In this document: positions 8,076 to 55,824 of the stretch, piece after piece | Numbering within the stretch: the stretch's first letter is position 1 | How the letters are laid out: each line of letters opens with the position of its first letter | Origin: an archaeon | Lineage (GTDB): Archaea > B1Sed10-29 > JAVZDC01 | Reading direction: 5' to 3' | NCBI GenBank assembly: GCA_038874115.1 | Contig: JAVZDC010000002.1 | Coordinates: 110,531 to 174,530, forward strand | Length of the DNA stretch: 64,000 nt | Position numbers and translations under genes: made by a program | The notes under the pieces: generated by a model | What the model saw: the letters and a program-made list of their open reading frames with translations, nothing else | What the model was told of the DNA's origin: nothing | Databases searched by the model: none

Positions 8076-8084
8076 AATTCCCCT

Positions 8085-21667: not shown

Positions 21668-21717
21668 ACGCCTCTTTATTTTAAACATGTTTAAAAAATA
21701 TATCTTTTTCGAAGAGT

Positions 21718-22110
21718 TTAACAACAATTAATATTAATTTCTATTTTATCTTCTGTTACGTTTTCTTTCCAATCAAGCCCGTTTTCTTGAATATAAACTT
21801 TTTCATAACTTGCTTTGTTATTTTCCACATGTATCGTTTTTTGTTGTTGCGCTAAACAACCTTTGTATTCTAAAGTATAGTTTTTTCCATTTTCAAATTT
21901 TAATAAAAGATAACCTGCGTCATCTGTTTCTTTTTTCTCCCCATTTACATATATTTCTGCTTTTTCAGGGAATGCCAAACATTTGCCGTTTGTTAGATGA
22001 TACTTTACTATTTTTACCGGAATTAGCCCAACTGAAATCTGAGCTTGGCTGAGATAATACGCAAAAGCAATTATTCCAAGGATCAAAATCAACAAAATGA
22101 CTTCTTTCAT
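21718..22110 (-). CDS. hypothetical membrane-anchored protein (130 aa)
   Basis: N-terminal TM helix (VILLILILGIIAFAYYL), C-terminal Cys pair; immediately upstream of the beta-helix protein on the same strand. Confidence 0.55.
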   Translation of the reverse strand: MKEVILLILILGIIAFAYYLSQAQISVGLIPVKIVKYHLTNGKCLAFPEKAEIYVNGEKKETDDAGYLLLKFENGKNYTLEYKGCLAQQQKTIHVENNKASYEKVYIQENGLDWKENVTEDKIEININCC

Positions 22111-22276: not shown

Positions 22277-22368
22277 TAGCCCCGGGAGGATTCGAACCTC
22301 CGTCTGAAGGTATCTCCTCAATAAAGCAATCCAGAGCCTTCCATCCTTGTCCACTAGACGACGGGGCT
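22277..22368 (-). tRNA. tRNA-Gln (anticodon CTG) with ~19-nt intron
   Basis: A1-U72 acceptor AGCCCCG/CGGGGCT (common in archaeal tRNA-Gln), anticodon stem GAAGG/CCTTC, loop CTCTGG + intron ATTGCTTTATTGAGGAGAT, T-arm GGAGG-TTCGAAT-CCTCC. Exact intron boundaries uncertain. Confidence 0.65.
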
Positions 22369-32689: not shown

Positions 32690-33571
32690 TTAGAATTCAA
32701 CAAGCGGCCTTGCTCCATCTTTTTCAATTAAAACTGTTTTTTCCGCCTGAGCAACAAAGCTACCCGGAACATCTTGAAGCCCAGGATAACTTTTTATTAT
32801 TTTATTTAATAAAAGCTCCCTTAAACCAAGATTTAATTCAAATTCCCCAAATTCTTTTCTTAACCATCTTTTTGCAAAAGGTAAATTATCATACTTCTCG
32901 ATTTTTGCTAAAAGTTCCCTTCCAGATTTTTGTCTAACCTGACTTTTTTTAACTATTTTAAAAATTTCTACAAAGTTTGTTTCCCTAACTAAACCGCTCC
33001 CTGTTGTAGCAAAAGGCTCTATAGCAAAGACTTGTCCCTCTTCCAATGTTTCTTCCCCTTCGGCAACGTTTGGAATTGAAATCCCGCTATGCAAGTTGTA
33101 CCTTGTAAGTAAATGTCCATGTAAATTTCTGATTGGTTTGAAACCTTTTTCATTTATCGTCCTTAGGATCTCAGCCCCAACTTCTTTTATCTTTATTCCT
33201 GGCTTTATCAATGCGATTGCGTTTTCTAACGCAACTTCACAAGCCTCAACCAAGTTTTGATACTCTCCAGACAAGTCAACAGTAAAAGCACAATCGCATA
33301 TGAAGCCATCGACTTGGGTTCCAATATCTATTTTTATAATATCTTTTTCGGAGAAAGAATACGATGAGCCAAATTCGGGAGTGAAATGCGCCGCTTGATT
33401 ATTTATTGAGATGTTTACAGGAAACGCAGGTTTACAAGTCTCCCAAATCTCCTTTTCTATGCTTTCCGCAATTTCTAAAGCAAATACGCCAGGTTTTATT
33501 TTTTCTTTATACTTTTTTATAATTCTACTTGCAACTTCTCCAGCTTTTAGGTAGCAAGCTAATTCATCCAT
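32690..33571 (-). CDS. map: methionine aminopeptidase, type 2 (archaeal)
   Basis: 293 aa; pita-bread fold metal ligands (…DIGTQVDGFICDCAFT…HGH…EPF) and archaeal MetAP2 C-terminal region. Confidence 0.85.
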   Translation of the reverse strand: MDELACYLKAGEVASRIIKKYKEKIKPGVFALEIAESIEKEIWETCKPAFPVNISINNQAAHFTPEFGSSYSFSEKDIIKIDIGTQVDGFICDCAFTVDLSGEYQNLVEACEVALENAIALIKPGIKIKEVGAEILRTINEKGFKPIRNLHGHLLTRYNLHSGISIPNVAEGEETLEEGQVFAIEPFATTGSGLVRETNFVEIFKIVKKSQVRQKSGRELLAKIEKYDNLPFAKRWLRKEFGEFELNLGLRELLLNKIIKSYPGLQDVPGSFVAQAEKTVLIEKDGARPLVEF

Positions 33572-35802
33572 TTTTCCAAACCTTGTTGTTTTTTAGGAAC
33601 TATATCTTCAGGTTTAACTCCCAATTCTTCTAAAATCTTTAAAACAGCAGGAAGGATTTGATTTTGAATGTAGTATTCTGGATCATATTTTTCATTTTTT
33701 AAAAGTTGTATTGGAATGCTTCGGTCAGATATGCTTCCAGGCCCTTTTACTACGATGTATTCAAGCATCATACCAGGAGTTATTTTATGCCCTGCTTCCA
33801 TGAGTCTTTTGGCAACTTTAACATGAGGAGCTTGCTGTTCGTACTTGGATATTTTCCTTTGTATTTGCGTCATGATTATCAAATCTTCTTTTTTCGCTTT
33901 CCCTTCCTGAACTTCTTTTATAATTTCTCTTAAAGTTTTAACCGCATCCTCTACATTTCCTTCTTTCAATATTTTTTCTATAACTACTTCTTGTGCTTTT
34001 TTAGCAATATTAGCCCAATCTCGCCTCACTAATTCAAAACCTTTTATTTCCAAAACTCCATCCTCTCGTATTAAAGCATACTTCTTTTTTGCAGCCCCGC
34101 CCTCTCTTTTTGTAACAAAAAGTCCACGTGGATAATACCCTTGAAATTCAAGTTCCATTTTTTCTGGAAGTTCTTTATTTATTTTCTCAATCATTTTTTT
34201 AGCATCTTCCAAAGGTTTATTTCCAAGAGTAAAAAAGCAACTATCAGTATCCGCGTAAATAACTTTAAACCCGTTTTCACTAACTTCTTTTATGACTTTT
34301 TGAATGTAATGACGTGCAAGAGCCGTTATAGATTCAGCACATTCTCTGGAATACCATCTGGAGCGAGCAAAACCAAGATATCCATAAAAAGAATTAAGAA
34401 GGATTTTGAGCGCAAATTGTTTGAAATAAAGCTTTTTATACTCTTTTGTTCCGCGATCGTACTTTTTCATCAAATTTTTCGTTTCTATTCTTTTTTCAAT
34501 CAACTCTTCCAAGACTTCCGGAATAAGACCTTTCTTTTTCGTACAAAATTTGTGGTTAACTTCTGGAACTTTAAAGCATTCTTCATGTTCGCAATTTAAC
34601 GTATCCGGGGAAATGTTATGTGCTATTATTATGCTGGGATATAAAGATCTAAAGTCACACACAACTATTTTTTCATGAAGCCCAGGCTCAGGAGATTTTA
34701 CAAAAGCTCCTTTTATAGGGTTTAGCATCCTTTGTTTGATTAAATTTTCAGTCGGTCTTTTCGGGATTAAAATATTTTGTTCAATCGCTTTCCTTATTAT
34801 TAGCCATTCCACAAGTTGCGATGCACTCATCTTTATTATTTCTTCCATCGGGAATCCAAGAAGTTTTGTAAGTTCTATATAAATCGGTAAAATTTCTTCA
34901 CAAAGTTCATATGTAGCCCTTACATCTTCTTGATTGTATCTTAATAATTCTTCAAAATGCTCTTCTTTTTCCCAATACTCTCCAATTTTCTCACAAGGTA
35001 TGTCGAATTTTTCTTTTTTAAAGAATTCTCTATATATTGAAGGAAGGTCGTTTTTTGGCAATCTAATTGCTCCAATACTTGCTAAAAAATCTACAGCATC
35101 GAATACATCTACATGAATCATGTTTGGAATCGTTAATTTCGTCCAAATAGACCTTTTTTTTATGTTTACTTTTTGTTCTTCTGACCCAAATTCAAATTTT
35201 ATTCCCAATTTTTTTGCCCTTTCACTTAAGTAAGGAAAATCAAAAACAGAGGAAGCGTAACCTGTTATTATGTCTGGTTGTTCTTTTGCTACAAAATCCA
35301 AGAATTCTTCTATTATCCTTTTTTCCCCATCTTCTTCCCCCTTTTTCCAATAAAACGTCTTTTCCAAATCTTTCGTTTTAACTCCAATCACGATTATTTG
35401 ATCGTTTTCTGGATTTGGTATTCCAGAAACATTATATACTTCGATATCAAAAGCCAAGATCTTTAAGTCTTTTTCTAATCCATCAAAAACATATTTTTTT
35501 GTATCTAAGAGATATCTAAACACAAAAGGGATATCATGCTCATAAGCTATCCCGCCTTTTTTCTCTATATGTTTGGAAAGTTCAACTACTTGATTCGAAT
35601 TATCACAAAGAATTTTCTTTACTTTTTGAACTTTCTCCCCAACTTTCTTCTCAACATCTTCTGTTCTGATTTCTTTTTCTATCGGCCCAATAGCGTAAAA
35701 ATAAGGAGTAAATTTTACTTTTTTAAATTCCTTTTTCGAATTTATATAAATTTCCCTGATCTCATCGTCCCCGCTTTTAAGAACGTCAAACAACACGGGC
35801 AT
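33559..35802 (-). CDS. polB: DNA polymerase, family B
   Basis: Exo I FDIE (ILAFDIEVY), motif A DFRSLYPSII, motif C YADTDS. Start moved to MPVLFDVLKSG (ATG at 35802), giving ~748 aa; no intein. Confidence 0.9.
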   Translation of the reverse strand: MPVLFDVLKSGDDEIREIYINSKKEFKKVKFTPYFYAIGPIEKEIRTEDVEKKVGEKVQKVKKILCDNSNQVVELSKHIEKKGGIAYEHDIPFVFRYLLDTKKYVFDGLEKDLKILAFDIEVYNVSGIPNPENDQIIVIGVKTKDLEKTFYWKKGEEDGEKRIIEEFLDFVAKEQPDIITGYASSVFDFPYLSERAKKLGIKFEFGSEEQKVNIKKRSIWTKLTIPNMIHVDVFDAVDFLASIGAIRLPKNDLPSIYREFFKKEKFDIPCEKIGEYWEKEEHFEELLRYNQEDVRATYELCEEILPIYIELTKLLGFPMEEIIKMSASQLVEWLIIRKAIEQNILIPKRPTENLIKQRMLNPIKGAFVKSPEPGLHEKIVVCDFRSLYPSIIIAHNISPDTLNCEHEECFKVPEVNHKFCTKKKGLIPEVLEELIEKRIETKNLMKKYDRGTKEYKKLYFKQFALKILLNSFYGYLGFARSRWYSRECAESITALARHYIQKVIKEVSENGFKVIYADTDSCFFTLGNKPLEDAKKMIEKINKELPEKMELEFQGYYPRGLFVTKREGGAAKKKYALIREDGVLEIKGFELVRRDWANIAKKAQEVVIEKILKEGNVEDAVKTLREIIKEVQEGKAKKEDLIIMTQIQRKISKYEQQAPHVKVAKRLMEAGHKITPGMMLEYIVVKGPGSISDRSIPIQLLKNEKYDPEYYIQNQILPAVLKILEELGVKPEDIVPKKQQGLEKWMN

Positions 35803-35866
35803 AAATATTAATAAATAGACGTATTTTAAATATTTGGAGGTGGATTTATTGCCATCTGATCGTGGC

Positions 35867-36301
35867 ATGTCTGCTTTGGATGCTTTAAATATGCAGGTTC
35901 AAACCTTAAATTCAAAGGTAGAAGTAGTAGCTCAAAGAATGAAAGTTATCGAGAAAAATGAACAGATAATTGGAAAAACTTTAATATCTCATAATAAAAC
36001 TTTGAAAGAATTGGAAGACGGGCTAGCTGCTTTAAAGGCAGAGAAGAAAGAAGAATTTCAGCAACAATTCGCTGCTGCTTTGGAAGAATTAAAAGAAAAG
36101 ATTGCTTCTTTTGAAGAAGATTTAAAAAGCTTAAAAAGTCAAGTCGAATATGCTCGTTTAGGAGTCGATGCTTTAAAATCTGATTTATCCAAATTGGAAT
36201 ATGCGTTAGAAGCCATAAACCCTGTTTTATACGTTACTATAGATCAAATTGGAGAATTAATAGAACAAAAGATCGAAGAAGCTTTATCTAAAAAGAAATA
36301 A
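35867..36301 (+). CDS. hypothetical coiled-coil protein
   Basis: ~145 aa of heptad-like Leu/Glu/Lys repeats. Start ambiguous (TTG 35849 after GGAGG, or ATG 35867). Confidence 0.55.
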   Translation: MSALDALNMQVQTLNSKVEVVAQRMKVIEKNEQIIGKTLISHNKTLKELEDGLAALKAEKKEEFQQQFAAALEELKEKIASFEEDLKSLKSQVEYARLGVDALKSDLSKLEYALEAINPVLYVTIDQIGELIEQKIEEALSKKK

Positions 36302-37750
36302 CTATTCACTCAAGAAAGGTCTAATCTTAAATCTGTATGGTTTTGAATTCTTTTCTTTTGCAGCCGCTTCGTTTTCAGTAATAAATTGTAAAATCATTGT
36401 TGAGTTTTGCATAATTTCTTGTGCTATATCGGATTCATGTGGAGTTCCGATGTGTACTCCAACTCCAACTTTTTGACAATCAAAAATACTTTTGAGAATT
36501 TCTTTCTCAATATTTTTTTGAATTTCCGGGGAGACTATCGGCTTTTCGATAAATACACTTGCTTTTAATGTATAGCTCTTGTCCACGACATAATAGAAAT
36601 AAAGTGTTTTTAAAAGGGATAAAAATACAAGTGGCAGCAATTCTTCCTGTTTTTCTAAAAATTCAACTCTGATCGCATTTCCTCCTGTTAAATATTTTGG
36701 TAAAATTTCAGAAATATTCATCTTTCCTTTGAAAATATCCGGGTATGCTTGCTCCAACGTAGACAATATCCTTAAAGCTTGGTAATATTGATTCTTAGTT
36801 GTAGCATCGAAAGCAAGATTAGTCTTTATATCCTCTATTGAACTTATCCCACCTTTTATCTTATTTAAAGCTTGATCAATCATTTCCCATGTCTTTTTCA
36901 CGCTTTCTGAATTCAATCCTAAAAATTCCTTCAAAGTTTCATTTGATATTAAGTTTAGGTCTACTCCAATTCTTTCAAGTGAAATGTTTTTTAAAGGCAA
37001 TCCAACAGGGCTTAAATCAGGGTAGTTCTCAAAATCAAACTTCGGGTTTGGTAGATTCATTGAAGCATAATCTTTTCCTTTATCGAAAAATATCGCCATT
37101 TTTCCACTTAATACGCAATTTTCGATTAAAACATGGAACATCTTTTTTATATCTTTTTGGCTTCCTATTACCACACAAAGCATAAATGAGTTTATCTCTT
37201 CCATGGCCTTTTCTCCAGTAATTTTTCTTCCAATTATCACCTTTGTTGGTTTAACTTCCTCAATTATCCTTTCTTTTTTGGAAACAAGAGCAAAGAATAG
37301 CGCAGGGTCCACAAACAATCTTTTAACCTCTTCTTCTTTTGCATATTTCAATTCCACTAAGTCGATTTTATAAAGTTTTGAAAGTCTGAGAAGATCTTTT
37401 GAAGAAGTTTCACATACATTTATCGATTTTTCTATCGCATCGTTTAATGCACTCATGTTGTATTCCACGTAAACAGGTCCAGAATTTATGATGAAGTATT
37501 TTGTTAAGCTTAAAGGTTCTTTTTTTTCAATTATTTGTGCGTAACCTACAATATTTTCTAAAGCACGAGCAAGAGAACCAACAGCTACGAATACCTTATT
37601 TACTTGCACCAATACTCCTTTAATTTCCTCCCCTTCTTTTTCATAAATACATATTAAAAGAATCCGGTCTGGGTTTTCGAAAATTTTAGTTTCGTATCCT
37701 TGCCAAAAACCTGAAAAGATTTCATTCCAAGGCCCATAAGCAGCTTCCAT
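36302..37750 (-). CDS. hypothetical protein (482 aa)
   Basis: Long uninterrupted ORF in AT-rich DNA; no Walker or other diagnostic motif found. Confidence 0.6.
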   Translation of the reverse strand: MEAAYGPWNEIFSGFWQGYETKIFENPDRILLICIYEKEGEEIKGVLVQVNKVFVAVGSLARALENIVGYAQIIEKKEPLSLTKYFIINSGPVYVEYNMSALNDAIEKSINVCETSSKDLLRLSKLYKIDLVELKYAKEEEVKRLFVDPALFFALVSKKERIIEEVKPTKVIIGRKITGEKAMEEINSFMLCVVIGSQKDIKKMFHVLIENCVLSGKMAIFFDKGKDYASMNLPNPKFDFENYPDLSPVGLPLKNISLERIGVDLNLISNETLKEFLGLNSESVKKTWEMIDQALNKIKGGISSIEDIKTNLAFDATTKNQYYQALRILSTLEQAYPDIFKGKMNISEILPKYLTGGNAIRVEFLEKQEELLPLVFLSLLKTLYFYYVVDKSYTLKASVFIEKPIVSPEIQKNIEKEILKSIFDCQKVGVGVHIGTPHESDIAQEIMQNSTMILQFITENEAAAKEKNSKPYRFKIRPFLSE

Positions 37751-37798
37751 ATTATCATTTAAAGCATAAATATATTTAAACTTGATTTATATCTAATT

Positions 37799-38386
37799 AT
37801 GCCTACCATGGATCCAAAAATGCAGGAAATTATCGACATTCTAAAAAACATGCTTCAGACTGGAGCATCGGATGAAGAAATATCGAATATTCTCCAATCT
37901 GCCGGGATTCCAAAAGAAGATGCAGACTTTTTAATATCTGAGGCAAAAAAATCTTTAGAATCAGAAAAAGCTGCTGCAAAAGCTGCTGAAGAAAAAGCTC
38001 CAACACAGGAAGCACCAACTCCACCTCCTGCGGCTGAAGAGGTAGAGGAAGGAGCAGAAGCTGAGGAAACCGAGGTTGAAGAAGCACCTGAAGGTCTTGG
38101 CGAGATTTTAGAAGAACAACAAAGCATTTTAGAAGAAATATTGTCTAAATTGGACGAACAGAATAAAGATATTTCCGAGTTAAAAACAATGATTACTGAG
38201 ATTAAAGAAAAACAAGCATTTTTAGAACAAAAGATAGAAGAAATAAGTATTCCAGCAGGAGATATACTTCAACTAAAAGAATTTGTTCTTCAGATGAAAC
38301 CTATGATTTCAAACGTAAAGGAATTAAATGAAAAACTTTTAGATATAAACCGAGAAGTATTGATGTGGTTAAAGAGTAAAAAATAA
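37799..38386 (+). CDS. hypothetical acidic coiled-coil protein
   Basis: 195 aa; Pro/Ala/Glu-rich acidic linker (APTQEAPTPPPAAEEVEEGAEAEETEVEEAPE) followed by a coiled-coil segment. Confidence 0.6.
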   Translation: MPTMDPKMQEIIDILKNMLQTGASDEEISNILQSAGIPKEDADFLISEAKKSLESEKAAAKAAEEKAPTQEAPTPPPAAEEVEEGAEAEETEVEEAPEGLGEILEEQQSILEEILSKLDEQNKDISELKTMITEIKEKQAFLEQKIEEISIPAGDILQLKEFVLQMKPMISNVKELNEKLLDINREVLMWLKSKK

Positions 38387-38387
38387 C

Positions 38388-38612
38388 TTATTTCTGAAAT
38401 ATTTTCATAATTTGAGTTAGAATGCTTTTGCTTTTCTTTCCTTTTTTAAAAAGTTTTAAAAACGGAGGTAGTATAGCTTCAATTTCTTTAGATTTACCTT
38501 TCTTATCTTCTTTACTTATGCTTTCAAATAAAATCCCTTCTGCTTCTCCTGGAATTGGAATTTCTTCTTTTGGTGGCTCAGAATAAATTATGATATGTTT
38601 CTTTTTTCCCAT
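38388..38612 (-). CDS. small protein with cationic amphipathic C-terminus (paralogue family member, no TM)
   Basis: 74 aa; HIIIYSEPPKEEIPIP core and tail ILPPFLKLFKKGKKSKSILTQIMKIFQK; related to the three upstream paralogues. Confidence 0.5.
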   Translation of the reverse strand: MGKKKHIIIYSEPPKEEIPIPGEAEGILFESISKEDKKGKSKEIEAILPPFLKLFKKGKKSKSILTQIMKIFQK

Positions 38613-38618
38613 GAAAAC

Positions 38619-38945
38619 TCACTTAAATAAGCTTTTAAATACTTTTCCAAAAGACTTTGATGCTTTAACCCACCAAGGCGGTTCTGCCTCTTCTTCAGGT
38701 TTGTATTTTAAACTTATTTTTTCAGGCATTACGTATGGCGCGGTTCTTTTGCTTTTAATGTAGATGGGATTTAACATTTCTTGTTTTGATTCTTTTTCTT
38801 CTTTTTTCTTAGAAATTAGACTAAATAACAATAAGATTATACTTAGTCCAAAAAGTAGATAAGATAATAACAAGTATTTTGCAATATACAAAAATAATGC
38901 AATTGTCATTAAAATTAATGCGTGATCAGCGTCCATATCAATCAA
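38619..38945 (-). CDS. small membrane protein, paralogue family with cationic amphipathic C-terminal tail
   Basis: 108 aa; two N-terminal TM helices, Lys/Glu linker, NPIYIKSKRTAPYVMPEK core, tail SKSFGKVFKSLFK. Confidence 0.6.
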   Translation of the reverse strand: MIDMDADHALILMTIALFLYIAKYLLLSYLLFGLSIILLLFSLISKKKEEKESKQEMLNPIYIKSKRTAPYVMPEKISLKYKPEEEAEPPWWVKASKSFGKVFKSLFK

Positions 38946-39279
38946 ATATTTTTTTAAAGAGTTTTATTATCGAACCACTCACTTTACCTAAAGACTCACC
39001 AGCCAACATGAAGGTTGAGCCGTGCTTTGGCCATTTTGTAATAATCTCTATCTTTCCTTTTTTCGGGTATAAATACGGAGGCTCTCCTATGTCTTCATAT
39101 ATCACTGGATGTAAAATCGTCTCCTCATCCTCTTTCTCCTTTTTTTCTGTTTTTTTATATTGTTTTTTAGGCCAAACTGCTATCAAAACGCTTAAAAATA
39201 ATAAAAATGCTGCGATGTAAACTTGTAACCAAAAAGCTATTATGAGCGCAACTATGAGTAATAAAAGAATTCTATCCAT
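38938..39279 (-). CDS. small membrane protein, paralogue family with cationic amphipathic C-terminal tail
   Basis: 113 aa; two TM helices, HPVIYEDIGEPPYLYPKK core, tail LGKVSGSIIKLFKKIFD. Confidence 0.6.
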   Translation of the reverse strand: MDRILLLLIVALIIAFWLQVYIAAFLLFLSVLIAVWPKKQYKKTEKKEKEDEETILHPVIYEDIGEPPYLYPKKGKIEIITKWPKHGSTFMLAGESLGKVSGSIIKLFKKIFD

Positions 39280-39321
39280 ACCTAAATTTTATTTTTTAAA
39301 GCTTAATAATCTTTCGCGAGT

Positions 39322-39636
39322 TCATTTAAACAGGCTTTTTAATATTTTTCCTAAATTCTTTCCAAGTTTATCAGCTTTAAGGGATAAGCCAGTAGGCCCA
39401 GGTTTTCCAACCTCAATCTCCAATTTTTCAGGATATATGCTTTTCGGCCCAACGTATTCTCTTTGTACAATTATTGGCTGAACTTTCACTTTTTCTGTAT
39501 GTTTTTTACTTTTGGATTGTTTTTTAAATTCTAAGAAAGCTACCCCAACTATCATAAGTATTACGGATAACCAAACTTGCTTTAGAAAAAAAGAGATGAT
39601 AGCACCAACGAAAGCAACAATACTAATTTTATTCAT
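39322..39636 (-). CDS. small membrane protein, paralogue family with cationic amphipathic C-terminal tail
   Basis: 104 aa; two TM helices, QPIIVQREYVGPKSIYPEK core, tail LGKNLGKILKSLFK. Confidence 0.6.
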   Translation of the reverse strand: MNKISIVAFVGAIISFFLKQVWLSVILMIVGVAFLEFKKQSKSKKHTEKVKVQPIIVQREYVGPKSIYPEKLEIEVGKPGPTGLSLKADKLGKNLGKILKSLFK

Positions 39637-39944
39637 CTATAGCCCCCAAGCATTCTTAATAATTCGTCATATCCTCCTTCTTCTGTTTGTTTTATTCCTT
39701 TTCTTTGAGCAAGTATGTAGATTATAGCTACTGCGATGATTATCGGAATAAACCAATTTTCTTTTAAATTGAGGAAATAAATGCTTGCTAAAGCTAACCA
39801 ACAAACCAAAGATATTGCAAAGCTTCTACTTATCAAAAGAATGAACAATGCACATGCGAACCCAAATACAGTTAGTTTAGCATTGATCAATATCGCAGAA
39901 AGCAATAATAAGATCAAGGTAGAATATAAATCAATCTCTGCCAT
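39633..39944 (-). CDS. hypothetical small polytopic membrane protein
   Basis: 103 aa, 3 TM helices; tightly packed with flanking genes on the same strand. Confidence 0.5.
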   Translation of the reverse strand: MAEIDLYSTLILLLLSAILINAKLTVFGFACALFILLISRSFAISLVCWLALASIYFLNLKENWFIPIIIAVAIIYILAQRKGIKQTEEGGYDELLRMLGGYR

Positions 39945-39964
39945 TTAAATCTTTCCCCCGCTTT

Positions 39965-40249
39965 TTATTTTTTTTCTTCTTTTTTCTCCGCTTTTTCACT
40001 CAAAGTTTCAGCCATTCCTTCTAAAAAGGCATAGCCGAAGAATAGTATTATTATCCAAATTATTAGCTCTGGATGCAGGTAAAACGTAAAATAACTTATT
40101 ATCGCAGCAAGGATTATTCCAATTTTTTTCGATCCAATAAAGTCCGATGCCCATTTGTATACGAATAAAAATAAAATAATTGTGAATACTATTCTTAAAT
40201 CATTCCAAATGTTACCCGCAACCCCAAACACAATTTCTTGCATCATCAT
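39965..40249 (-). CDS. hypothetical small membrane protein
   Basis: 94 aa, 2-3 TM helices, Lys/Glu-rich C-terminus. Confidence 0.5.
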   Translation of the reverse strand: MMMQEIVFGVAGNIWNDLRIVFTIILFLFVYKWASDFIGSKKIGIILAAIISYFTFYLHPELIIWIIILFFGYAFLEGMAETLSEKAEKKEEKK

Positions 40250-40280
40250 ACTTAATCCTTTCCATAATATATAAATTTTT

Positions 40281-40604
40281 TCAATATCTTTGTAGCATAA
40301 ACATTATTATTCCAGAAAAGCCCATCATAACGAGTAAATAAAAGGTGTAGGCTGGGACAAAAAGAAAATACAATTTTATTACAAAGATGTATATCAATAT
40401 TCCGCTAACGATATATGTTAAAATCCCTGGGCCCAAGAAATTCTTAACGAATGAATAAATTACAAATATGAAATATGCTATCATTAACCACTTAAATATT
40501 GGGAAAAGCTCTCCAAGAAGAAGAGGAAAGAGCATGATTGCTAAGAAAACAAGTAACAAGATAATCATGAACGGAGTGAAAAATAAAAATCCTTTTGTTT
40601 TCAA
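40281..40604 (-). CDS. hypothetical small polytopic membrane protein
   Basis: 107 aa, ~4 TM helices. Confidence 0.5.
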   Translation of the reverse strand: MKTKGFLFFTPFMIILLLVFLAIMLFPLLLGELFPIFKWLMIAYFIFVIYSFVKNFLGPGILTYIVSGILIYIFVIKLYFLFVPAYTFYLLVMMGFSGIIMFMLQRY

Positions 40605-40610
40605 AATTGT

Positions 40611-40973
40611 TCACCTCATCCTAGCCCTAGCTCTCATCATCGTATCTTCTGTTTCGATTCCCTCCATAGAAGGTTCTTTTCTCCAAGGTTTAACTATGGA
40701 TAGGTCGAATAAAACTTGTGTGAATCCAAATATAATGAATAAGTAAATGAACATCATCGGACCAAATATCTCAAAATGCTGGAATAGGAAGATATAAGCT
40801 AAAACCAAAGTAATGATTATTGTAACTGGCCCTCCACCAAACCTGTTTTTTACAAAACCAACAATAAACAGTAAAACCACGATTTTAAAAGCAAGAATAA
40901 GAAGGTCAAAATCAGATAAAACGTTCCCAAAAAGCTTTCCAATCAAAAATCCTTGAATATCTGGGAACCCCAT
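40611..40973 (-). CDS. hypothetical small membrane protein
   Basis: 120 aa, 3 TM helices, Arg-rich C-terminus (MMRARARMR); start 2 nt after the stop of the giant upstream gene. Confidence 0.5.
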   Translation of the reverse strand: MGFPDIQGFLIGKLFGNVLSDFDLLILAFKIVVLLFIVGFVKNRFGGGPVTIIITLVLAYIFLFQHFEIFGPMMFIYLFIIFGFTQVLFDLSIVKPWRKEPSMEGIETEDTMMRARARMR

Positions 40974-40974
40974 T

Positions 40975-43900
40975 TTAATCCTTGAAGTTACTTATTAAAG
41001 TTTCCAATTCTCCTGAATCTTTTGCGAATATCTTGTATCCTTGTGAATCAGACCAAATTATTCCGCTTTTAGGAATGTCTGCTGTACTGCCCCACTTATT
41101 TTTAAATATTGTTTGCGCATTTTGTTCGCACGTAGAGATACTTGTACAAATTGCCACAAATACACTTTTTATGTTGTCTGGGGGCGTAGTTCCAGATTTC
41201 CATAAGAAATTAACTTCTGCAGGAGATACTTTTTCAATCTTCGCAATTAAATTTATTATATTATTGTTAAGTTTCTCCTTTACATCTCGCGAGCATTCTC
41301 CGTTTCCTTGAACGCAGATTCCTTGAATTGTTGAGGATGTTAATGTAAGATAATTCTCCCCTATAGAGTCTTCATCAATGTATTTTAAAGATAGTGTTCC
41401 TCTAAGAGTTTTTTCTAAATTACTTATTAATTCCTCTAATTCCCCTTTATTTTTTCCAATGATGTATGTGTTCCATCCTTTTCTAAATATTATGTTAGCT
41501 TCGTACCTTCCAAGTTTATCAGATACTAGATGACATGGAGCTTTCTTATCTTCTCCTTCATTGATTATAGCTGATTCGTTGCATATCTTCACTATGATAG
41601 TAGGACCCAACTCGATTTCATTTTTTTGAGTTATTTCTTTTAAAGTTACATCCGTGTTCCATTGTGCTTTTAAAGCTTTTCCTAACTTCTGCAAAATACC
41701 GTCCTTTTCCGAGCCCCCTATTCCTTCAAAGTACACATGTACATAGATTGCTGGTGTTGTCGAAGAACTTAACGATTCGTTAAGTACAGGCCAAAATGCT
41801 TGTACTCCTCTCACATCATTTTCATTTTCATCCACAATTTCCAATCCTGAAAGTCTTCCTGTAGAATCAAACGAATTTATTTCAACGCAGGAATCAGTTA
41901 TTTTATTTATTTTAAGCTGATATTCCCCTGCCCCTTCAATTCTAGCCCCATTGTTTATTAATACACATTTTTCTTTTCCAGAGGTACAATAACCGCATGA
42001 GCTCTGAGATGCCATTTCACTTATTATCACAAACTCCGCTTTAGAATATATTTCTGTAAATATTCTTTGAATATCTTGCGGTGTCGCGCCTTTTAAAGCC
42101 ACAGATTTGAAAGTCACTGGATTTGGACTTGAGAAATTGTCCGTTTTCTCTATAATAAATGCTAAAATTTGATCAAGAGAGCAAAAGTTTGTTTCACAGT
42201 CAAGAGGAAGACCATACTTCTGAATCTTTAAAGGTTTAAAGTATCCTTCAGAAATTTCTTCAACACTCGGAGCTTTTGCCATTATCGTAAGTCGAATCGT
42301 GTATGCGGAGCTTATTTTTTTATTTGACTTAAACTCCTTTGACGCGTTAATAGTAATGTTTATGTTATTTATTTCAGACGCGCCAGCTTCCAATGTTTTC
42401 CCAAAACTATATTTTATCTCCGCTCCTTGTGTGTATTGAGAAAATGAAGAAATATATCCACTTGGGGATGCTCCTCCAGTCCCTTCGACTACCACTTTGG
42501 TAATGTCCACTTCTACATCCGGGTCGCATTTTTTGAGAGTTAGAGATACGGGATTAGATTCGGTACAATTATTGTCACGTGGTGCTTCAAAGCTTGCTTC
42601 TTTTGTCATAACTTTAGATACTGAGATCAAACAAGAATGAGTTTCCCTTGTTGAAACGTCTAGATTGATTGATTTGGTTGTTGGAATTTCTAGACAAGGA
42701 CTTGCTACTTTTTTTATCTGGCCTTCCTTTAAATTATCTCCTGAAAGATTTATTTCTATTTTTGTTCCTGGGTATGCTCGTACTTGGTCATCAAAATAAA
42801 TCTCTATCCGATCTCTCTTATATTTGTAATTATTCGAATATTCTGAACTTTTAATTTGAATCGTTCTTCCATCCATTGTAATTTTTCCTTCTACATGGTA
42901 TTGTTTTGGATTTATAGGGGTATTCAAACCCTCTTTATATACTTTTATCGAAAAGTTAGTAGTTAAATCAGTTATTTTTTCAGGTTCTATTTCAATTCTT
43001 ATCGAAGCTTGTGCAGAATAGTTTATTTTGGTCTCAGCTACTTTGTTATTGTCGACAAAAGAATGAATTATCACTTGCGGAGGTATTTTAGCCTCTGCTT
43101 CAATCTTTACAATTATTTTTTCCCCAGTTCTCCAATCTTTTAAACTTAATTTAACATCTGTTTCATTCGCTTCGTATTCCGATTCATCAATAGTCGTAAG
43201 AGTATTGTTAAATTCTCTTAATACCATCGTGGTTAAAAATTCAGTAGTAATTCCAGATAAAGTATTGCTTGTAATACTTATCTCAGATGAACTTCTGGTT
43301 GAACCCTCGTTTATAAATGAAATTGTTAAGTTGTACTTAGGTTCATTTTCTTTAATCTCTACAGCGTTTGGAGAATAGGAGTTACCTTTATAGTTCACTT
43401 CTGCTTTAACCATTATTGTTTTGTCCTCCAAACCTGGCTCCAAATTGCTTTCTCGTGAGATATAAAAGAATATCTTTTTCGTCCCCTTTTTCGGATCGCT
43501 AACTTTCGCGTCTCCTTTATACCAAGTAGCAGAGTATTCCAAAGTTACATTATCGTTGAAACAAGTTGTTTTTACTCTTATAGGTACACGCACCTCTAAA
43601 GTAGTATTTCTATATTCATCTGGGTATCCGGATATTACATACGTTACGCCAGACACCTCTGTCGATTGTGTGAAATCAGTCGGCTCGACTCTTCCAAATT
43701 CTAAACATCCACTACGTTCCTTTATAGAAAATTCTGCTTTATCTACAGGTTCATTATTTAAATCTGGGAGGGAAACTAAGAAATGTAAAACATATTGTTC
43801 TCCTACTGAAAGACTTTCTTCAACATTCCCATTGGTTGCTCTATCAAAATAGACTGTAAAGTTTACGAATGCAAGCTTCAAATCTATTGAAACATCTTTA

Positions 43901-45684
43901 GTTAACATACCTACGTCAATAATCCCTCCATATATTTTTCCTGTTGAAGTATTTCTCCAAGTTCCTTTTACTATTATGTTCGAGTATTCTGGAACTTCAA
44001 ATTCTACGTACCCATCGATCGATGTTTTACCGCTTGTAAGTTGAACGAGTTCTTGTTCTTCCCCAACTCTTTTATCAAAAAGTACTACTTCTGCATTCGA
44101 AAGTACTTCTTCGCTCTCTTTTTCTAAAACAGTTATTCCTATGGTATATTTTTTCCTTTCAATTTCTATAACTTTCCTAACAAGGGACCCTCCTTTCACT
44201 GTAACTTGGACGCAACTACTTGAATCATTAAACCTTATTGCTTTTACACAATATTCTCCGATAGGCACACCATTAAACATAACTTTTCCATCCACCCCTG
44301 TTTTTTCAGGTATGGAAGGAATTCCAAGTAATTGAGACTCATCTTTTGAAAATAATTTTACTTCAGCATCCTTTACAGGTATTTCAGTTCCTTTAAAAAT
44401 TACAGTTACCTTTATGTCTCCATACTCTCCAGAAGTAAGTTCCGTCAAATATATTTTTTTACTTTCGCCCCCAACTATTTCGAATTCAGTATAATTGTAT
44501 CCTTGTAAAAATACGCTAGCTCGGTAAGTTTCTCTCTTTTTTAATGCAATCTTTGCGACACCAGTTTCATCAGATTCTGCCTTACTAATTATATCGTTTC
44601 CTTTGAATACTGTAATATATGCTCCTCCAACCGGAACTTCCCCACTTTGAGTTTGCTTAAAAGTATAGATGTAAGTTGGAGATGTTGTATTTACTTGAAT
44701 TAAAATCTCTAAAGTTCCGCCAGTTATGTTAGCAACCCAAGTTTTGTTTTCATCAATGTAACTGTCATAATTTGTATTATTTTCCCCTGCTTCAACTTTT
44801 ACTGAGAAGTTAGCATTCTTTGGAACTTTGAGGTTTGCAATTCCCAAATAACCTTGAGAATACCCTGTTGTCTCTGAAGAATAAGTGTAGTTAGTTAATG
44901 GATTTACAAGTTTTACCGTGACTCCAGCCAAAGGATTATTATTTTCATCAACAACTTTTACTTTGACTTTCACATATTCTTCTTTTATTTCTTTCCGATC
45001 TAGTTTGATGCAAACTCCAGAATCTATTTTATTTTTTATGTACTCTCCAGGCAGTAAATCAGTCTCATAGTTCAAAGTTTCAAATTTATAAGAATAATTT
45101 ATTACAAAATTACTCATTACACAAGTAGCATTTTCCTCACAAGAAAGAACGTCTTTTTCTTTAACCACTCTTTCTCCATCATAGGCGGAGTATTTAATTG
45201 AACTTATGCTTAATTCTGAAAAATCTGCTGTTTCAAAGCAAAGTTGTACTGATGTTCTTGAAAGCTCGCCTTGGCATTTTAAATATATTGGAATCTGGTA
45301 CGTATCTGATTCTACAGTTATCGTAGATTCGTAATTTAAACATCCTGTTTTTTCCACCTGAATAGAATATTCACCAGGTTCTGCTGAGAGTTCAACGATC
45401 CCATCAACAGTTTCTCCACTATATACTGTTTTCCCATTCAAATCCTTTAAAGTTATTGATGCGCCAGATATTCCTATTTTTGTAATGTTGTCTTTTACAA
45501 ATATGGAAAATTGTATTTCTTTTGGGGTAGGTGCTCCTCCTCCCCCTCCAGCCAGCATTAAATAAATTCCAACAAGTATTGCAACGAATATTCCAGCAAA
45601 AACAGGTAAAGAAGGTATTCCCTTTTTTTCCAAAGGATCTATAATTGAATAGATTGGAACACCTTTCGAATCTAAAAAATCCAA
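40975..45684 (-). CDS. giant (1569 aa) surface adhesin-like protein with prepilin-like N-terminal anchor and Ig-like/prealbumin-like beta-sandwich repeats
   Basis: N-terminus EKKGIPSLPVFAGIFVAILVGIYLML (basic, KG, hydrophobic helix) then Gly5 linker; many beta-rich repeats (e.g. VKVKVVDENNNPLAGVTVKLVNPLTNYTY); last long gene of the pilus-like operon. Confidence 0.8.
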   Translation of the reverse strand: MDFLDSKGVPIYSIIDPLEKKGIPSLPVFAGIFVAILVGIYLMLAGGGGGAPTPKEIQFSIFVKDNITKIGISGASITLKDLNGKTVYSGETVDGIVELSAEPGEYSIQVEKTGCLNYESTITVESDTYQIPIYLKCQGELSRTSVQLCFETADFSELSISSIKYSAYDGERVVKEKDVLSCEENATCVMSNFVINYSYKFETLNYETDLLPGEYIKNKIDSGVCIKLDRKEIKEEYVKVKVKVVDENNNPLAGVTVKLVNPLTNYTYSSETTGYSQGYLGIANLKVPKNANFSVKVEAGENNTNYDSYIDENKTWVANITGGTLEILIQVNTTSPTYIYTFKQTQSGEVPVGGAYITVFKGNDIISKAESDETGVAKIALKKRETYRASVFLQGYNYTEFEIVGGESKKIYLTELTSGEYGDIKVTVIFKGTEIPVKDAEVKLFSKDESQLLGIPSIPEKTGVDGKVMFNGVPIGEYCVKAIRFNDSSSCVQVTVKGGSLVRKVIEIERKKYTIGITVLEKESEEVLSNAEVVLFDKRVGEEQELVQLTSGKTSIDGYVEFEVPEYSNIIVKGTWRNTSTGKIYGGIIDVGMLTKDVSIDLKLAFVNFTVYFDRATNGNVEESLSVGEQYVLHFLVSLPDLNNEPVDKAEFSIKERSGCLEFGRVEPTDFTQSTEVSGVTYVISGYPDEYRNTTLEVRVPIRVKTTCFNDNVTLEYSATWYKGDAKVSDPKKGTKKIFFYISRESNLEPGLEDKTIMVKAEVNYKGNSYSPNAVEIKENEPKYNLTISFINEGSTRSSSEISITSNTLSGITTEFLTTMVLREFNNTLTTIDESEYEANETDVKLSLKDWRTGEKIIVKIEAEAKIPPQVIIHSFVDNNKVAETKINYSAQASIRIEIEPEKITDLTTNFSIKVYKEGLNTPINPKQYHVEGKITMDGRTIQIKSSEYSNNYKYKRDRIEIYFDDQVRAYPGTKIEINLSGDNLKEGQIKKVASPCLEIPTTKSINLDVSTRETHSCLISVSKVMTKEASFEAPRDNNCTESNPVSLTLKKCDPDVEVDITKVVVEGTGGASPSGYISSFSQYTQGAEIKYSFGKTLEAGASEINNINITINASKEFKSNKKISSAYTIRLTIMAKAPSVEEISEGYFKPLKIQKYGLPLDCETNFCSLDQILAFIIEKTDNFSSPNPVTFKSVALKGATPQDIQRIFTEIYSKAEFVIISEMASQSSCGYCTSGKEKCVLINNGARIEGAGEYQLKINKITDSCVEINSFDSTGRLSGLEIVDENENDVRGVQAFWPVLNESLSSSTTPAIYVHVYFEGIGGSEKDGILQKLGKALKAQWNTDVTLKEITQKNEIELGPTIIVKICNESAIINEGEDKKAPCHLVSDKLGRYEANIIFRKGWNTYIIGKNKGELEELISNLEKTLRGTLSLKYIDEDSIGENYLTLTSSTIQGICVQGNGECSRDVKEKLNNNIINLIAKIEKVSPAEVNFLWKSGTTPPDNIKSVFVAICTSISTCEQNAQTIFKNKWGSTADIPKSGIIWSDSQGYKIFAKDSGELETLISNFKD

Positions 45685-47443: not shown

Positions 47444-47842
47444 TTAAGAACAACTATCTGAGCAAAGATATATTGTACATCCTTGTTGTGAGTCGCACTT
47501 TGTAGATATTGGAATTTTCATATTGTATTTTGCAGTACAAAGGAATCCTTCACAATCTACTTTATTTCCGCACCTGTTCCTAATTCCTATAGATGTATCT
47601 GGGAAAAAATGTTGTATGCTTTTAGATGATATTGTTTCTCCTTTTTTTAGTTCAAAATCCCGAGATATGCATTGGGATGCTACTCTTACAGAATAAGCTT
47701 CCCCAACAATCTCTTTTAATAATGCTCCTGTTTCAAAAGGTTTTGGAGTAGAACTTATATATGCAAAGATTATTGCTGCTAAAGCGATAGCAAAAATTCC
47801 AGCAAGCATCATTTCAAAAATCGTAAAAGCTTGTCCTTTCAT
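47444..47842 (-). CDS. archaeal type IV pilin-like protein (class III signal peptide)
   Basis: N-terminus MKGQAFTIFEMMLAGIFAIALAAIIFAYI; paralogue of 46753..47175; overlaps the platform gene stop by 4 nt. Confidence 0.7.
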   Translation of the reverse strand: MKGQAFTIFEMMLAGIFAIALAAIIFAYISSTPKPFETGALLKEIVGEAYSVRVASQCISRDFELKKGETISSKSIQHFFPDTSIGIRNRCGNKVDCEGFLCTAKYNMKIPISTKCDSQQGCTIYLCSDSCS

Positions 47843-52144: not shown

Positions 52145-52657
52145 TTTAACATTCCTCGTTCCGAATTCGTGAAAGCGACTTTTTTTACTTTTAAAATCTT
52201 GCTATTTTTTTCTATTTTTATAACTCTACTCTCTTTTATAAATCTTTATCCTCTTAAAGTCTTTGTGGCTAAAGGCGTCTCTTTTTTATTAACTCTTTTT
52301 GGTGTACCGCATGTTTTAATCTTCTCAAGCCCAGAGCCAAGCATTTTTGTAGATAATGTCGAAGCCCAAATAAAGGACTTATGTGTTGGACATATGGAAA
52401 TTGCGTTGATTTGTTCGATAATCTTAGCTTGTGATGATCGTTCTGTTAAATCTCGAGTTCTTGGTGCCTTTTGTTCTATTCCTTTTGTTTTTTTCTTAAA
52501 TCCTTTAAGAATCTCGGTCGTTTTGTTTTTTGGGCATTATTTCTCCTGGCCTTTTGCAGACTTTATTCATGATGTTCTTTTCAGGCTCACTCTTTTTATT
52601 GTAATTCTTATTTACTTTCTGATTTGGTATGTTTTATCCTGGAAGTTTAAGTTATAA
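52133..52657 (+). CDS. possible small polytopic membrane protein with Cys-Ser / Asn-x-x-Arg motifs (exosortase/archaeosortase-like?), or non-coding
   Basis: 174-aa ORF in the 550-bp divergent intergenic region; TM helices, EIALICSIILAC and FLNPLRISV. May be spurious (AT-rich DNA gives hydrophobic ORFs) or may start internally. Confidence 0.3.
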   Translation: MRSHFNIPRSEFVKATFFTFKILLFFSIFITLLSFINLYPLKVFVAKGVSFLLTLFGVPHVLIFSSPEPSIFVDNVEAQIKDLCVGHMEIALICSIILACDDRSVKSRVLGAFCSIPFVFFLNPLRISVVLFFGHYFSWPFADFIHDVLFRLTLFIVILIYFLIWYVLSWKFKL

Positions 52658-55308: not shown

Positions 55309-55824
55309 ATGAATAAAGCCCAAGCAGCTCTTTTCGACGCTCTTTTCTTTATGTTTTTAGCAGCTGGAGCAGCTTACTTATTACTTTTCGTGGCTGCAAA
55401 CTATGCTGCGGATACACAAAATCAAGTAGCTTTCACGTATAATTATGATTATCTCTCAAACGTTTTTGTAGCGTTACATTATTTAAAAGATGATTCTGGA
55501 AACTTTTTTTGGTTAAAATTTGAAGAAAAATTGGGGAAAGAAGAACAAAGTTGCAATTATTTGAAAGATTATTTTGGTTTGACAAAGGTTACTTATGATC
55601 CAAACGATCATGAAAAAGCAAAACCTATTTTAGAACTTTTGAATGCTTCAAGTCCAAGTGATTGTTTTGTTTTGGAAATAAGGGAAAATGGGTGCAAGAT
55701 ATACGTTTCCGGAAGTGAGGCTACTTGCGAAGAAAGCAAAGAAAGAAATCAAGTAATTGCTTATTCCACCGGAATTTCTAAAGGTCTTAAATCTTATACT
55801 TTAACTTTGAAGGTTTTGCGCTGA
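55309..55824 (+). CDS. prepilin-like protein (class III signal peptide)
   Basis: N-terminus MNKAQAALFDALFFMFLAAGAAYLLLF (K-A-Q + hydrophobic helix). Confidence 0.5.
   Translation: MNKAQAALFDALFFMFLAAGAAYLLLFVAANYAADTQNQVAFTYNYDYLSNVFVALHYLKDDSGNFFWLKFEEKLGKEEQSCNYLKDYFGLTKVTYDPNDHEKAKPILELLNASSPSDCFVLEIRENGCKIYVSGSEATCEESKERNQVIAYSTGISKGLKSYTLTLKVLR

What the first reader, a model, noticed from the sequence alone, without database searches (positions are those of the whole stretch)
35867..38386. Two coiled-coil proteins flanking a 482-aa uncharacterised protein
A ~145-aa heptad-repeat protein (+), a 482-aa protein with no recognisable motifs (-), and a 195-aa acidic protein with a Pro/Ala/Glu linker plus coiled coil (+) sit together between polB and the surface island. 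Coiled-coil proteins of this type are candidates for cytoskeletal, cell-division or membrane-remodelling roles, which are poorly defined in small-genome archaea.
Basis: inference. Interest (0 to 1): 0.4.

Follow-up and report, generated by a model that had tools for sequence, protein, structure and literature searches.

The report
ATPase-dead HerA ring with coiled-coil neighbours
The "uncharacterised" 482-aa protein is a HerA-type ring protein that has lost all its ATP-hydrolysis motifs, and it sits with two coiled-coil proteins in a gene arrangement conserved across at least 90 small-genome (DPANN) archaeal species, so it is a real, undescribed protein family whose function is still only inferred.

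Summary
The central 482-aa protein (B) has no Pfam or NCBIfam hit. A 106-member family profile matches HerA in the PDB (E 8e-7). Its AlphaFold model (pLDDT 94.9) matches only HerA structures among the top 50 hits.

None of the 106 members keeps a Walker A motif at the P-loop. The Walker B and arginine-finger positions are not conserved either. B is therefore a catalytically dead HerA derivative.

The family has about 220 clusters at 50% identity. It was found in 93 species genomes, mostly labelled Iainarchaeum/Diapherotrites, some Micrarchaeota.

The flanking proteins are also conserved. A is a two-helix hairpin of 144–150 aa. C has a small three-helix head, an acidic Pro/Ala/Glu linker and a coiled coil. 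Neither belongs to a known family.

The conserved gene order is: giant surface protein, four to eight small membrane proteins, C&lt;, B&gt;, A&lt;, PolB&gt;, MAP&gt;. C is adjacent to B in 66/74 loci, A to B in 50/64, and A to PolB in 41/42.

Best reading: a non-enzymatic HerA ring acting as a structural hub with coiled-coil partners. This is an inference. No ESCRT, Cdv or SMC homology was found.

The parts
35849..36301 (+). Gene A, a helical-hairpin coiled-coil protein. It is 144 aa from ATG 35867. TTG 35849 gives 150 aa starting 'MP', as in the family consensus, and has GGAGGTG 6 nt upstream.
   Evidence: ORF. Start region. Family of 66 homologues, alignment A5. Heptads. Single-sequence AlphaFold model has helices 3-58 and 62-142, pLDDT 86.7.
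36302..37750 (-). Gene B, a 482-aa HerA-fold protein without ATPase motifs.
37463..37750 (-). N-terminal beta-barrel domain of B (residues 1-96). It carries the near-invariant GPW...N(P) motif (G6, P7, W8, N26).
   Evidence: Secondary structure. Column counts.
37139..37174 (-). Degenerate P-loop of B (residues 193-204, VVIGSQKDIKKM). The family consensus is T-h-h-x-G-G-x-E-x-R-K-H, aligned with HerA AILAATGSGKSNT.
   Evidence: HMM alignment to 4d2i. Column frequencies, and 0/106 sequences with GK[ST] at this site.
36542..36562 (-). Degenerate Walker B site of B (residues 397-403, ASVFIEK). The acidic pair of HerA (E355/E356) corresponds to P/E/D and a variable residue in the family.
36308..36337 (-). 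Conserved C-terminal motif of B, Y-R-x-x-h-R-P-x-L-S (residues 472-481). R477 is invariant and R473 is present in 101/106.
37751..37798 (.). 48-nt AT-rich divergent intergenic region between B and C, with TATA-like runs in both directions.
   Evidence: C is divergent from and adjacent to B in 66/74 loci.
37799..38386 (+). Gene C, a 195-aa acidic protein. Residues 5-52 are a conserved three-helix head (37811-37954). Residues 53-100 are the Pro/Ala/Glu linker. Residues 98-151 are heptad coiled coil. The C-terminal helix is conserved (...LLDINREVLMWLKSKK).
35803..35848 (.). AT-rich divergent region between A and PolB, assuming PolB starts at M23 (35802).
   Evidence: A is adjacent to PolB in 41/42 loci.
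33559..35868 (-). Family B DNA polymerase, the conserved neighbour of A.
   Evidence: Pfam domains on the L001 orthologue. Neighbour cluster 4 is present in 54 loci.
38388..40973 (-). Eight small membrane-protein genes, conserved in the same order upstream of C. The s10/s11-type products end in basic amphipathic tails.
40975..45684 (-). 1569-aa surface protein with CarboxypepD_reg and SpaA-like Ig-type domains. A giant protein occupies this position in 38 loci.

Best explanation
B is a diverged HerA-type ring protein (HerA/FtsK superfamily) that cannot hydrolyse ATP in the canonical way. It is kept as a structural hub.

Shown: B has the HerA fold. The Walker A, Walker B and arginine-finger signatures are replaced throughout the family. 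Other positions stay invariant, namely the N-terminal GPW motif, E210, R327 and the C-terminal YRxxxRPxLS. The family is widespread in Iainarchaeota/Diapherotrites and Micrarchaeota-labelled genomes. Its position next to C and A is conserved.

Inferred: B still forms a ring. It acts as a passive assembly platform, as active HerA does for NurA, Sir2 or DUF4297. C is its most faithful neighbour, sharing a 48-nt divergent promoter region, and would bind through its conserved head or tail, with the acidic linker as a spacer. The hairpin protein A is a second, looser partner.

The small membrane proteins encoded just upstream of C have short tails with basic amphipathic ends. Together with the giant surface protein, they make the cytoplasmic face of a cell-envelope complex the most likely location.
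For: HerA homology:
- The profile of 106 family members hits Sulfolobus HerA 4d2i at E 7.8e-7 over residues 167-468. It also hits YjgR and other HerA chains.
- The AlphaFold model has pLDDT 94.9.
- The top 50 Foldseek PDB hits are all HerA, the best at 2.5e-12.
- The best hit in the viral structure library is also HerA-like.
- One family member carries a weak precomputed PF01935/DUF87 hit.

Loss of catalysis:
- 0/106 sequences have GK[ST] at the P-loop.
- The two P-loop glycines are mostly E/D, and the Lys position is R in 84/106.
- The Walker B position is P 55, E 21, D 9.
- The column aligned to HerA R381 is S/K/E/A/Q.

Selection:
- 222 clusters match at E<=1e-3, nearly all full length at 470-520 aa.
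- Five columns are invariant.

Linkage:
- 93 of 97 genome hits carry B.
- C is adjacent and divergent in 66/74 loci, and A is adjacent and convergent in 50/64.
- The order big8-tmX-tmX-tm6-tm7-s5-C-B-A persists down to 20% identity in B.

Charge pattern:
- The C family is acidic (median -12).
- The s5/s10/s11 tails are basic, at +2 to +3.
Against: - No interaction was tested.
- The three genes lie on alternating strands, so they are not an operon.
- When insertions occur they fall between B and A, and A stays with PolB (41/42). A may therefore not belong with B at all.
- Gene order in this lineage is conserved beyond obvious functional links. PolB-MAP, for example, is conserved in 20+ loci, so synteny is weaker evidence here than usual.
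- Ring formation and membrane proximity are inferred only.
- A non-canonical nucleotide site cannot be excluded, given conserved R201, H203, H206 and E210.
Confidence: 0.4

Rival explanations
1. DNA-linked role. The dead HerA ring encircles DNA passively, as a clamp, tether or segregation/replication accessory. It would work with PolB, with A as a PolB-associated factor.
For: - HerA rings thread dsDNA (established knowledge of the family), and B's best matches are the DNA-end-resection HerA proteins of archaea.
- A-PolB is the tightest adjacency, at 41/42 loci, with a short shared divergent promoter region.
- PolB is present in 54 loci.
Against: - In the L003-type clade the triad sits among pilin-like surface proteins with no PolB nearby.
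- C is strongly acidic, and its head domain has an acidic third helix, which is unlike DNA-binding modules.
- B has a median net charge of -5.
- No nuclease, Mre11 or Rad50 neighbour was seen.
Confidence: 0.25
2. There is no common function. Three unrelated lineage-specific genes are adjacent only because gene order is inherited in these compact genomes. Very short bidirectional promoter regions (C/B and A/PolB) are hard to split.
For: - The genes lie on alternating strands.
- Insertions between B and A occur in about 9 loci.
- Unrelated neighbours such as PolB-MAP are conserved as well.
Against: - Adjacency survives to about 20% identity in B across two phylum labels.
- C-B adjacency is 89%.
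- The family was only found where A and C were also found.
Confidence: 0.2
3. B is still an NTPase or nucleotide sensor using a re-built site, with conserved R201, K202, H203, H206 and E210 in place of the P-loop signature.
For: Several polar and basic residues around the former P-loop are conserved: R201 in 84/106, and E210 is invariant.
Against: - Both P-loop glycines are replaced by acidic residues.
- Walker B and the Arg finger are lost.
- The window's own protein has I at position 201.
Confidence: 0.1
4. A is an ESCRT-III/PspA-type membrane-remodelling protein, and the set is a division or membrane-repair module.
For: The best structural matches of the A hairpin include Vipp1/PspA, with TM 0.76-0.81.
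Against: - No hit reached E<=0.001 in that search; the best were 0.02-0.08.
- PI3K p85 iSH2 and other unrelated hairpins score equally well.
- A has only two helices. From established knowledge of the PspA/ESCRT-III fold, it lacks helices alpha0, alpha4 and alpha5.
- Neither PspA_IM30 nor Snf7 is among the 25 Pfam families that most of the 60 scanned members match (the only ones listed).
Confidence: 0.05

Closest known systems
Archaeal HerA (HerA-NurA end-resection helicase; PDB 4d2i, 9x1m)
   Same: - Overall fold: an N-terminal beta-barrel, a RecA-like core with a helical insert, and a similar length.
- These are the best sequence-profile and structure matches.
   Different: - Walker A, Walker B and the Arg finger are all lost.
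- There is an extra long helix (residues 99-126) after the barrel.
- No NurA, Mre11 or Rad50 neighbours were seen; the neighbours are coiled-coil proteins.
- The window protein does not reach the PF01935 threshold.
HerA as an assembly hub in defence systems (Sir2-HerA, DUF4297-HerA; PDB 8uae, 8zir)
   Same: A HerA ring used as a platform for a partner protein. These structures are among the top structural hits.
   Different: - Those HerA proteins are active ATPases with enzymatic effectors, and they are patchily distributed.
- B is inactive. It is present once in every locus that carries it and sits in a conserved chromosomal position next to housekeeping genes.
- No PADLOC search was run.
Ring ATPase with coiled-coil stalks (FliI-FliH-FliJ; A/V-type ATPase A3B3 with D and E/G). 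Analogy recalled from general knowledge.
   Same: A RecA-type ring with an F1-like N-terminal barrel, a roughly 145-aa antiparallel hairpin, and a longer coiled-coil protein with a separate head.
   Different: No homology was detected for A or C to FliJ, FliH, D or E. The ring here is inactive. No interaction was tested.
Ced DNA-import system of Crenarchaeota (CedB HerA/VirB4-like ATPase with small membrane proteins CedA, A1, A2). Recalled from general knowledge.
   Same: A HerA-superfamily protein encoded next to several small multi-TM proteins.
   Different: - CedB is an active ATPase.
- None of the top 50 structural matches of B is a VirB4- or CedB-type protein; all are HerA.
- No homology of the small membrane proteins to CedA was tested.
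PspA/Vipp1 hairpin (ESCRT-III superfamily)
   Same: A's two-helix hairpin superposes on their alpha1-alpha2/3 hairpin, with TM about 0.8.
   Different: The E-values are not significant, there is no sequence-family match, and the flanking helices are missing.

Membership tests
HerA (HerA/FtsK superfamily) | HerA fold: N-terminal barrel plus RecA-like core with helical insert | tested here: met
   Model pLDDT is 94.9. The top 50 PDB matches are all HerA, with E down to 2.5e-12. The family profile matches 4d2i at E 7.8e-7.
HerA (HerA/FtsK superfamily) | Walker A P-loop GxxGxGK[ST] | tested here: not met
   0/106 sequences have it at the aligned site. The window protein has VVIGSQKDIKK. The family consensus is GGxExRKH.
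HerA (HerA/FtsK superfamily) | Walker B acidic pair (HerA E355/E356) | tested here: not met
   The first position is P 55, E 21, D 9 out of 106. The second position is variable.
HerA (HerA/FtsK superfamily) | Trans-acting arginine finger. HerA R381 is my recollection of the 4d2i paper; the residue number was checked against the alignment. | tested here: not met
   The aligned column (residue 426) is S16/K13/E12/A11/Q10, with no conserved R.
HerA (HerA/FtsK superfamily) | Passes the Pfam PF01935 (DUF87/HerA central domain) threshold | tested here: not met
   The window protein gives no hit. One distant member (P0144) has a weak precomputed hit.
HerA (HerA/FtsK superfamily) | Hexameric ring | not testable with these tools
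   No multimer prediction was available. The conserved C-terminal motif is compatible with ring formation but is not proof.
HerA (HerA/FtsK superfamily) | NurA/Mre11/Rad50 gene neighbourhood | tested here: not met
   None of these appears among the recurrent neighbour clusters in 99 loci.
ESCRT-III / PspA / Vipp1 (for protein A) | Sequence-family match (PF03357 Snf7, PF04012 PspA_IM30) | tested here: not met
   Neither is among the 25 families that most of the 60 scanned members match, which are the only ones listed. The window protein gives only generic coiled-coil hits below cut-off.
ESCRT-III / PspA / Vipp1 (for protein A) | Five- to six-helix architecture: hairpin plus alpha4/alpha5 and an N-terminal amphipathic helix | tested here: not met
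   The model has only two helices, 3-58 and 62-142. Structural matches to Vipp1/PspA have E 0.02-0.08.
SMC / Rad50-like (for A and C) | ABC ATPase head domains flanking a long coiled coil | tested here: not met
   The proteins are 144 and 195 aa and have no ATPase domain. The NCBIfam SMC/Rad50 hits score far below cut-off (13-23 bits against cut-offs of 300 to about 1090) and cover coiled-coil segments only.
CdvA/CdvB/CdvC | Homology to the Cdv proteins | tested here: inconclusive
   No Cdv or Vps4 family appears in the Pfam or NCBIfam output for A, B or C. No dedicated profile-profile comparison was run.

The most novel reading that the evidence does not exclude
The dead HerA ring, the hairpin protein A and the stalk-like acidic protein C form a static assembly shaped like a rotary ATPase, with ring, central hairpin and peripheral stalk. 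This assembly docks onto the basic cytoplasmic tails of the neighbouring small membrane proteins. It would form the inner base of a previously unknown envelope apparatus with its giant surface protein, specific to Iainarchaeota and Micrarchaeota.
Probability: 0.15. Interest if true: 0.75.

Novelty: new variant of a known kind. Interest (0 to 1): 0.5.

Why it matters
DPANN archaea have tiny genomes, yet this lineage keeps a 480-500-aa HerA derivative that can no longer work as a motor. Two dedicated coiled-coil proteins sit in a fixed chromosomal position beside it. That points to an important and entirely uncharacterised piece of their cell biology.

The work gives a hypothetical protein family a fold, an evolutionary origin and clear experiments: ring formation, partners and location. 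It adds a case of a HerA/FtsK-type motor re-used as a non-catalytic protein. I found no description of this family in the searchable literature.

Tried and rejected
- Single-sequence Pfam, NCBIfam and PDB searches of A, B and C gave nothing above cut-off.
- The word-index homology search found only 2 relatives of B. It added little when given the 106-sequence profile or the C head-domain profile.
I wrote a degenerate DNA pattern instead. The first version was one base too long and matched nothing. I corrected it and ran it.
A was folded from a single sequence only.
- The C head domain matched only designed helical-repeat proteins in the PDB. I considered an HeH/SAP, HTH or UBA-like reading from the sequence pattern and dropped it. 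There is no supporting hit, and the third helix is acidic.
- Profile comparison of A against C gave 45% probability, which is shared coiled-coil character rather than paralogy.
- The viral-contig scan gave one hit, which translation showed to be chance.
- The small membrane proteins have no Pfam family.
- Four literature searches found no description of the family.
Full report
**Observation.**
- A is at 35867-36301 (+), 144 aa from the ATG.
- B is at 36302-37750 (-), 482 aa.
- C is at 37799-38386 (+), 195 aa.

PolB (33559-35868, -) lies on one side. A run of small membrane-protein genes and a 1569-aa surface protein (38388-45684, -) lies on the other.

A simple heptad test supports the coiled-coil call. 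In A, residues 1-62 and 66-118 score, and 0 of 500 shuffles reach the observed value. In C, residues 98-151 score, and 1 of 500 shuffles does. C has a net charge of -24 and a Pro/Ala/Glu linker at residues 53-100.

The start of A is ambiguous. TTG at 35849 gives an 'MP...' N-terminus like the family consensus, and it has GGAGGTG 6 nt upstream. PolB probably starts at its M23 (35802). That would leave 46 nt of AT-rich sequence between the PolB start and TTG 35849, or 64 nt to ATG 35867. The stop codons of A and B abut with no base between them.

**What B is.** Single-sequence searches gave nothing: Pfam, NCBIfam and PDB were all empty. The word-index search found only a 98%-identical MAG protein and one 36%-identical relative.

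An exhaustive HMMER search with that small profile found 222 cluster representatives at E<=1e-3. Of these, 121 were at E<=1e-30, and nearly all were 470-520 aa and matched end to end.

A profile of 106 members hit Sulfolobus HerA (4d2i) at E 7.8e-7 over residues 167-468. It also hit YjgR and several other HerA chains.

The AlphaFold model built on that alignment is very confident, with pLDDT 94.9. Its best 50 PDB matches are all HerA. The archaeal HerA of the NurA complex comes first, at 2.5e-12 and 3.5e-12. The best match in the viral structure library is also HerA-like. One family member carries a weak precomputed PF01935 (DUF87) hit.

**Loss of the ATPase site.** I used the HMM alignment to 4d2i and column counts over the 106 sequences.
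- P-loop: HerA AATGSGKS corresponds to G-G-x-E-x-R-K in the family and to GSQKDIKK in the window protein. None of the 106 sequences has GK[ST] there.
- P-loop glycines: both are mostly Glu or Asp. The Lys position is Arg in 84/106, and Ile in the window protein.
- Walker B: the pair E355/E356 corresponds to P 55, E 21, D 9 and then a variable residue.
- Arginine finger: the column aligned with R381 shows no conserved Arg. That R381 is the arginine finger is my recollection of the 4d2i paper.

Other positions are fixed. W8, G174, E210, R327 and R477 are invariant. G6, P7, N26, P149, G250, P252, G357 and R473 are nearly so.

B is therefore a strongly constrained but catalytically disabled HerA derivative. 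The conserved GPW...N motif lies in the N-terminal barrel. The YRxxxRPxLS motif is at the extreme C-terminus. From memory of the HerA structure, the barrel face binds partners and the C-terminal segment braces the neighbouring subunit. I take this as compatible with a retained ring and a retained docking face, but I did not test it.

**The flanking proteins.** Both are conserved. In the contig of the 36% relative, the A orthologue is 42% identical (E 6e-38) and the C orthologue 28% identical (E 6e-18). Iterated HMM searches on all fetched loci found 66 A homologues and 88 C homologues, with no overlap between the two sets.

A has conserved ends and a variable middle. The conserved ends are ...LNS..L.I.QKMK.L.RNEKILGRNL... 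and ...KYVIDSINPLEF.TL.QV.ELI...

A single-sequence model gives two long helices, 3-58 and 62-142, forming a hairpin (pLDDT 86.7). Its structural matches are generic hairpins such as Vipp1/PspA and PI3K p85 iSH2, and none has E<=0.001.

C has a well conserved 48-residue head (MV..VV..TIK.M..SGIDD..I..TL.DIGL...E), a variable acidic linker and a conserved C-terminal helix. The head matched only designed helical-repeat proteins.

Profile searches against the PDB, and member-by-member Pfam scans, gave only coiled-coil noise. The most frequent hits were DUF7310 for C (31/66) and NPV_P10 for A (30/60), all below cut-off.

**Distribution and synteny.** The locus-finding tool rejected the alignments as too divergent. 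I therefore built a degenerate DNA pattern from the N-terminal motif. It matches 46 of the 106 family proteins at the protein level.

The pattern found 97 stretches in the species-representative genome collection, and 93 of them encode a true B. Of the 80 listed titles, 34 say Iainarchaeum, ainarchaeum or Diapherotrites. One is the complete AR10 genome. Five say Micrarchaeota. Most of the rest say 'archaeon'.

The window's own B is closest to Micrarchaeota-labelled genomes, at 31-37% identity, and shares their s10-s10-s11 gene pattern. None was found on viral contigs; the single hit was a chance match.

With B drawn on the + strand, the typical gene order is:
- giant surface protein >
- tmX > tmX > tm6 > tm7 >
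- s5 > (or s10 > s10 > s11 >)
- C <
- B >
- A <
- PolB >
- MAP >

| Adjacent pair | Loci with the pair adjacent | Note |
|---|---|---|
| C next to B | 66/74 | |
| A next to B | 50/64 | A elsewhere in the locus in 9, not found in 5 |
| A next to PolB | 41/42 | |
| s5 before C | 36/61 | |

Insertions occur mainly between B and A. When they do, A stays with PolB and C stays with B. In a distant clade where B is 20% identical to the window protein, the triad and the membrane and giant-protein genes are kept. There, PolB is replaced by pilin-like surface proteins.

The 'triad' is therefore better described as two divergent gene pairs, C/B and A/PolB, that usually lie back to back.

**Surroundings.**
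- The small membrane proteins have no Pfam family.
- The s5/s10/s11 types have one or two N-terminal TM helices and a tail that ends in a basic amphipathic segment, with mean tail charge +2 to +3.
- The C family is acidic (median -12) and B mildly so (median -5).
- Further out the window encodes a T2SSE-type ATPase, a weak T2SSF-like platform and an exosortase-like protein.
- The region is a cell-surface island on an ordinary archaeal chromosome that also carries RNA polymerase, EF-1A, EF-2 and aminoacyl-tRNA synthetase genes.

**Interpretation.**

Shown:
- B is an ATPase-dead HerA-fold protein.
- It defines a sizeable, undescribed family in two DPANN phylum labels.
- A and C are conserved lineage-specific coiled-coil proteins, and the neighbourhood is conserved.

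Inferred, at about 0.4 confidence: B keeps the ring and serves as a passive hub for coiled-coil partners. C is the firmest candidate partner. The location is probably the cytoplasmic face of the envelope complex encoded next door.

Rivals:
- A DNA- or PolB-linked passive ring, with A as a PolB partner (0.25).
- No shared function, with synteny preserved by inheritance and short bidirectional promoters (0.2).
- A rebuilt nucleotide site (0.1).
- An ESCRT-III/PspA-like role for A (0.05).

The architecture recalls ring ATPases with coiled-coil stalks, such as FliI-FliH-FliJ and A/V-ATPases. That is an analogy from general knowledge, with no homology found.

**Novelty.** Four full-text searches found no description of this family. 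I rate it a new variant of a known kind: a non-catalytic branch of HerA with its own partners and genomic setting.

Noticed in passing
window 38388-40973 (-): Eight small membrane-protein genes with no Pfam family. Their order (tmX, tmX, tm6, tm7, then s5 or s10/s10/s11) is conserved in 40+ genomes. The last group ends in basic amphipathic tails such as ..LGKILKSLFK.
   Followed up: partly
window 40975-45684 (-): A 1569-aa surface protein with an N-terminal hydrophobic anchor and CarboxypepD_reg and SpaA-like Ig-type domains. A giant protein (up to >2500 aa in L003) occupies the same position in 38 loci.
   Followed up: partly
window 47839-52657: Genes of a type IV filament-like assembly system: a T2SSE ATPase (762 aa, E 5e-20) and a weak T2SSF-like platform (680 aa). 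An exosortase/archaeosortase-like gene on the other strand follows.
   Followed up: no
window 36299-36304: The stop codon of A (TAA, + strand) directly abuts the stop codon of B (TAG, - strand). The two transcripts must therefore overlap or end inside each other's gene. Near-zero gaps recur in many loci.
   Followed up: partly
window 35803-35866 and 33559-35868: The PolB ORF as listed overlaps the start of A. PolB more likely starts at M23 (35802). A more likely starts at TTG 35849, preceded by GGAGGTG.
   Followed up: partly
window 22277-22368 (-): ARAGORN calls a 92-nt tRNA of undetermined type with a four-base anticodon 'tgga', next to tRNA-Val and tRNA-Met. It may be an intron-containing tRNA.
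   Followed up: no
window 7023-13876 (-): RNA polymerase genes are split in the archaeal manner. The Rpb1-type subunit is in two ORFs (8085-10604 and 7023-8075). The Rpb2-type subunit is in two ORFs (12413-13876 and 10597-12429).
   Followed up: no
L003 12210-14600 and 15267-17153; L025, L006, L063, L078: In one clade, large Glug-repeat proteins flank or interrupt the C-B-A set in place of PolB. They have an archaeal pilin-like N-terminus (...AQGTIEYLVIIAVVVVI...).
   Followed up: no
L007, L021, L065, L085: Contigs carrying a genuine B gene are filed under bacterial or Thaumarchaeota MAG names (Falkowbacteria, Chloroflexota, Chloroflexi, Thaumarchaeota). These are probably binning errors.
   Followed up: no
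window 17879-21727 (-) and 55801-60126 (-): Two more very large proteins. One is 1282 aa with beta-helix/NosD repeats. The other is 1441 aa with no Pfam hit.
   Followed up: no
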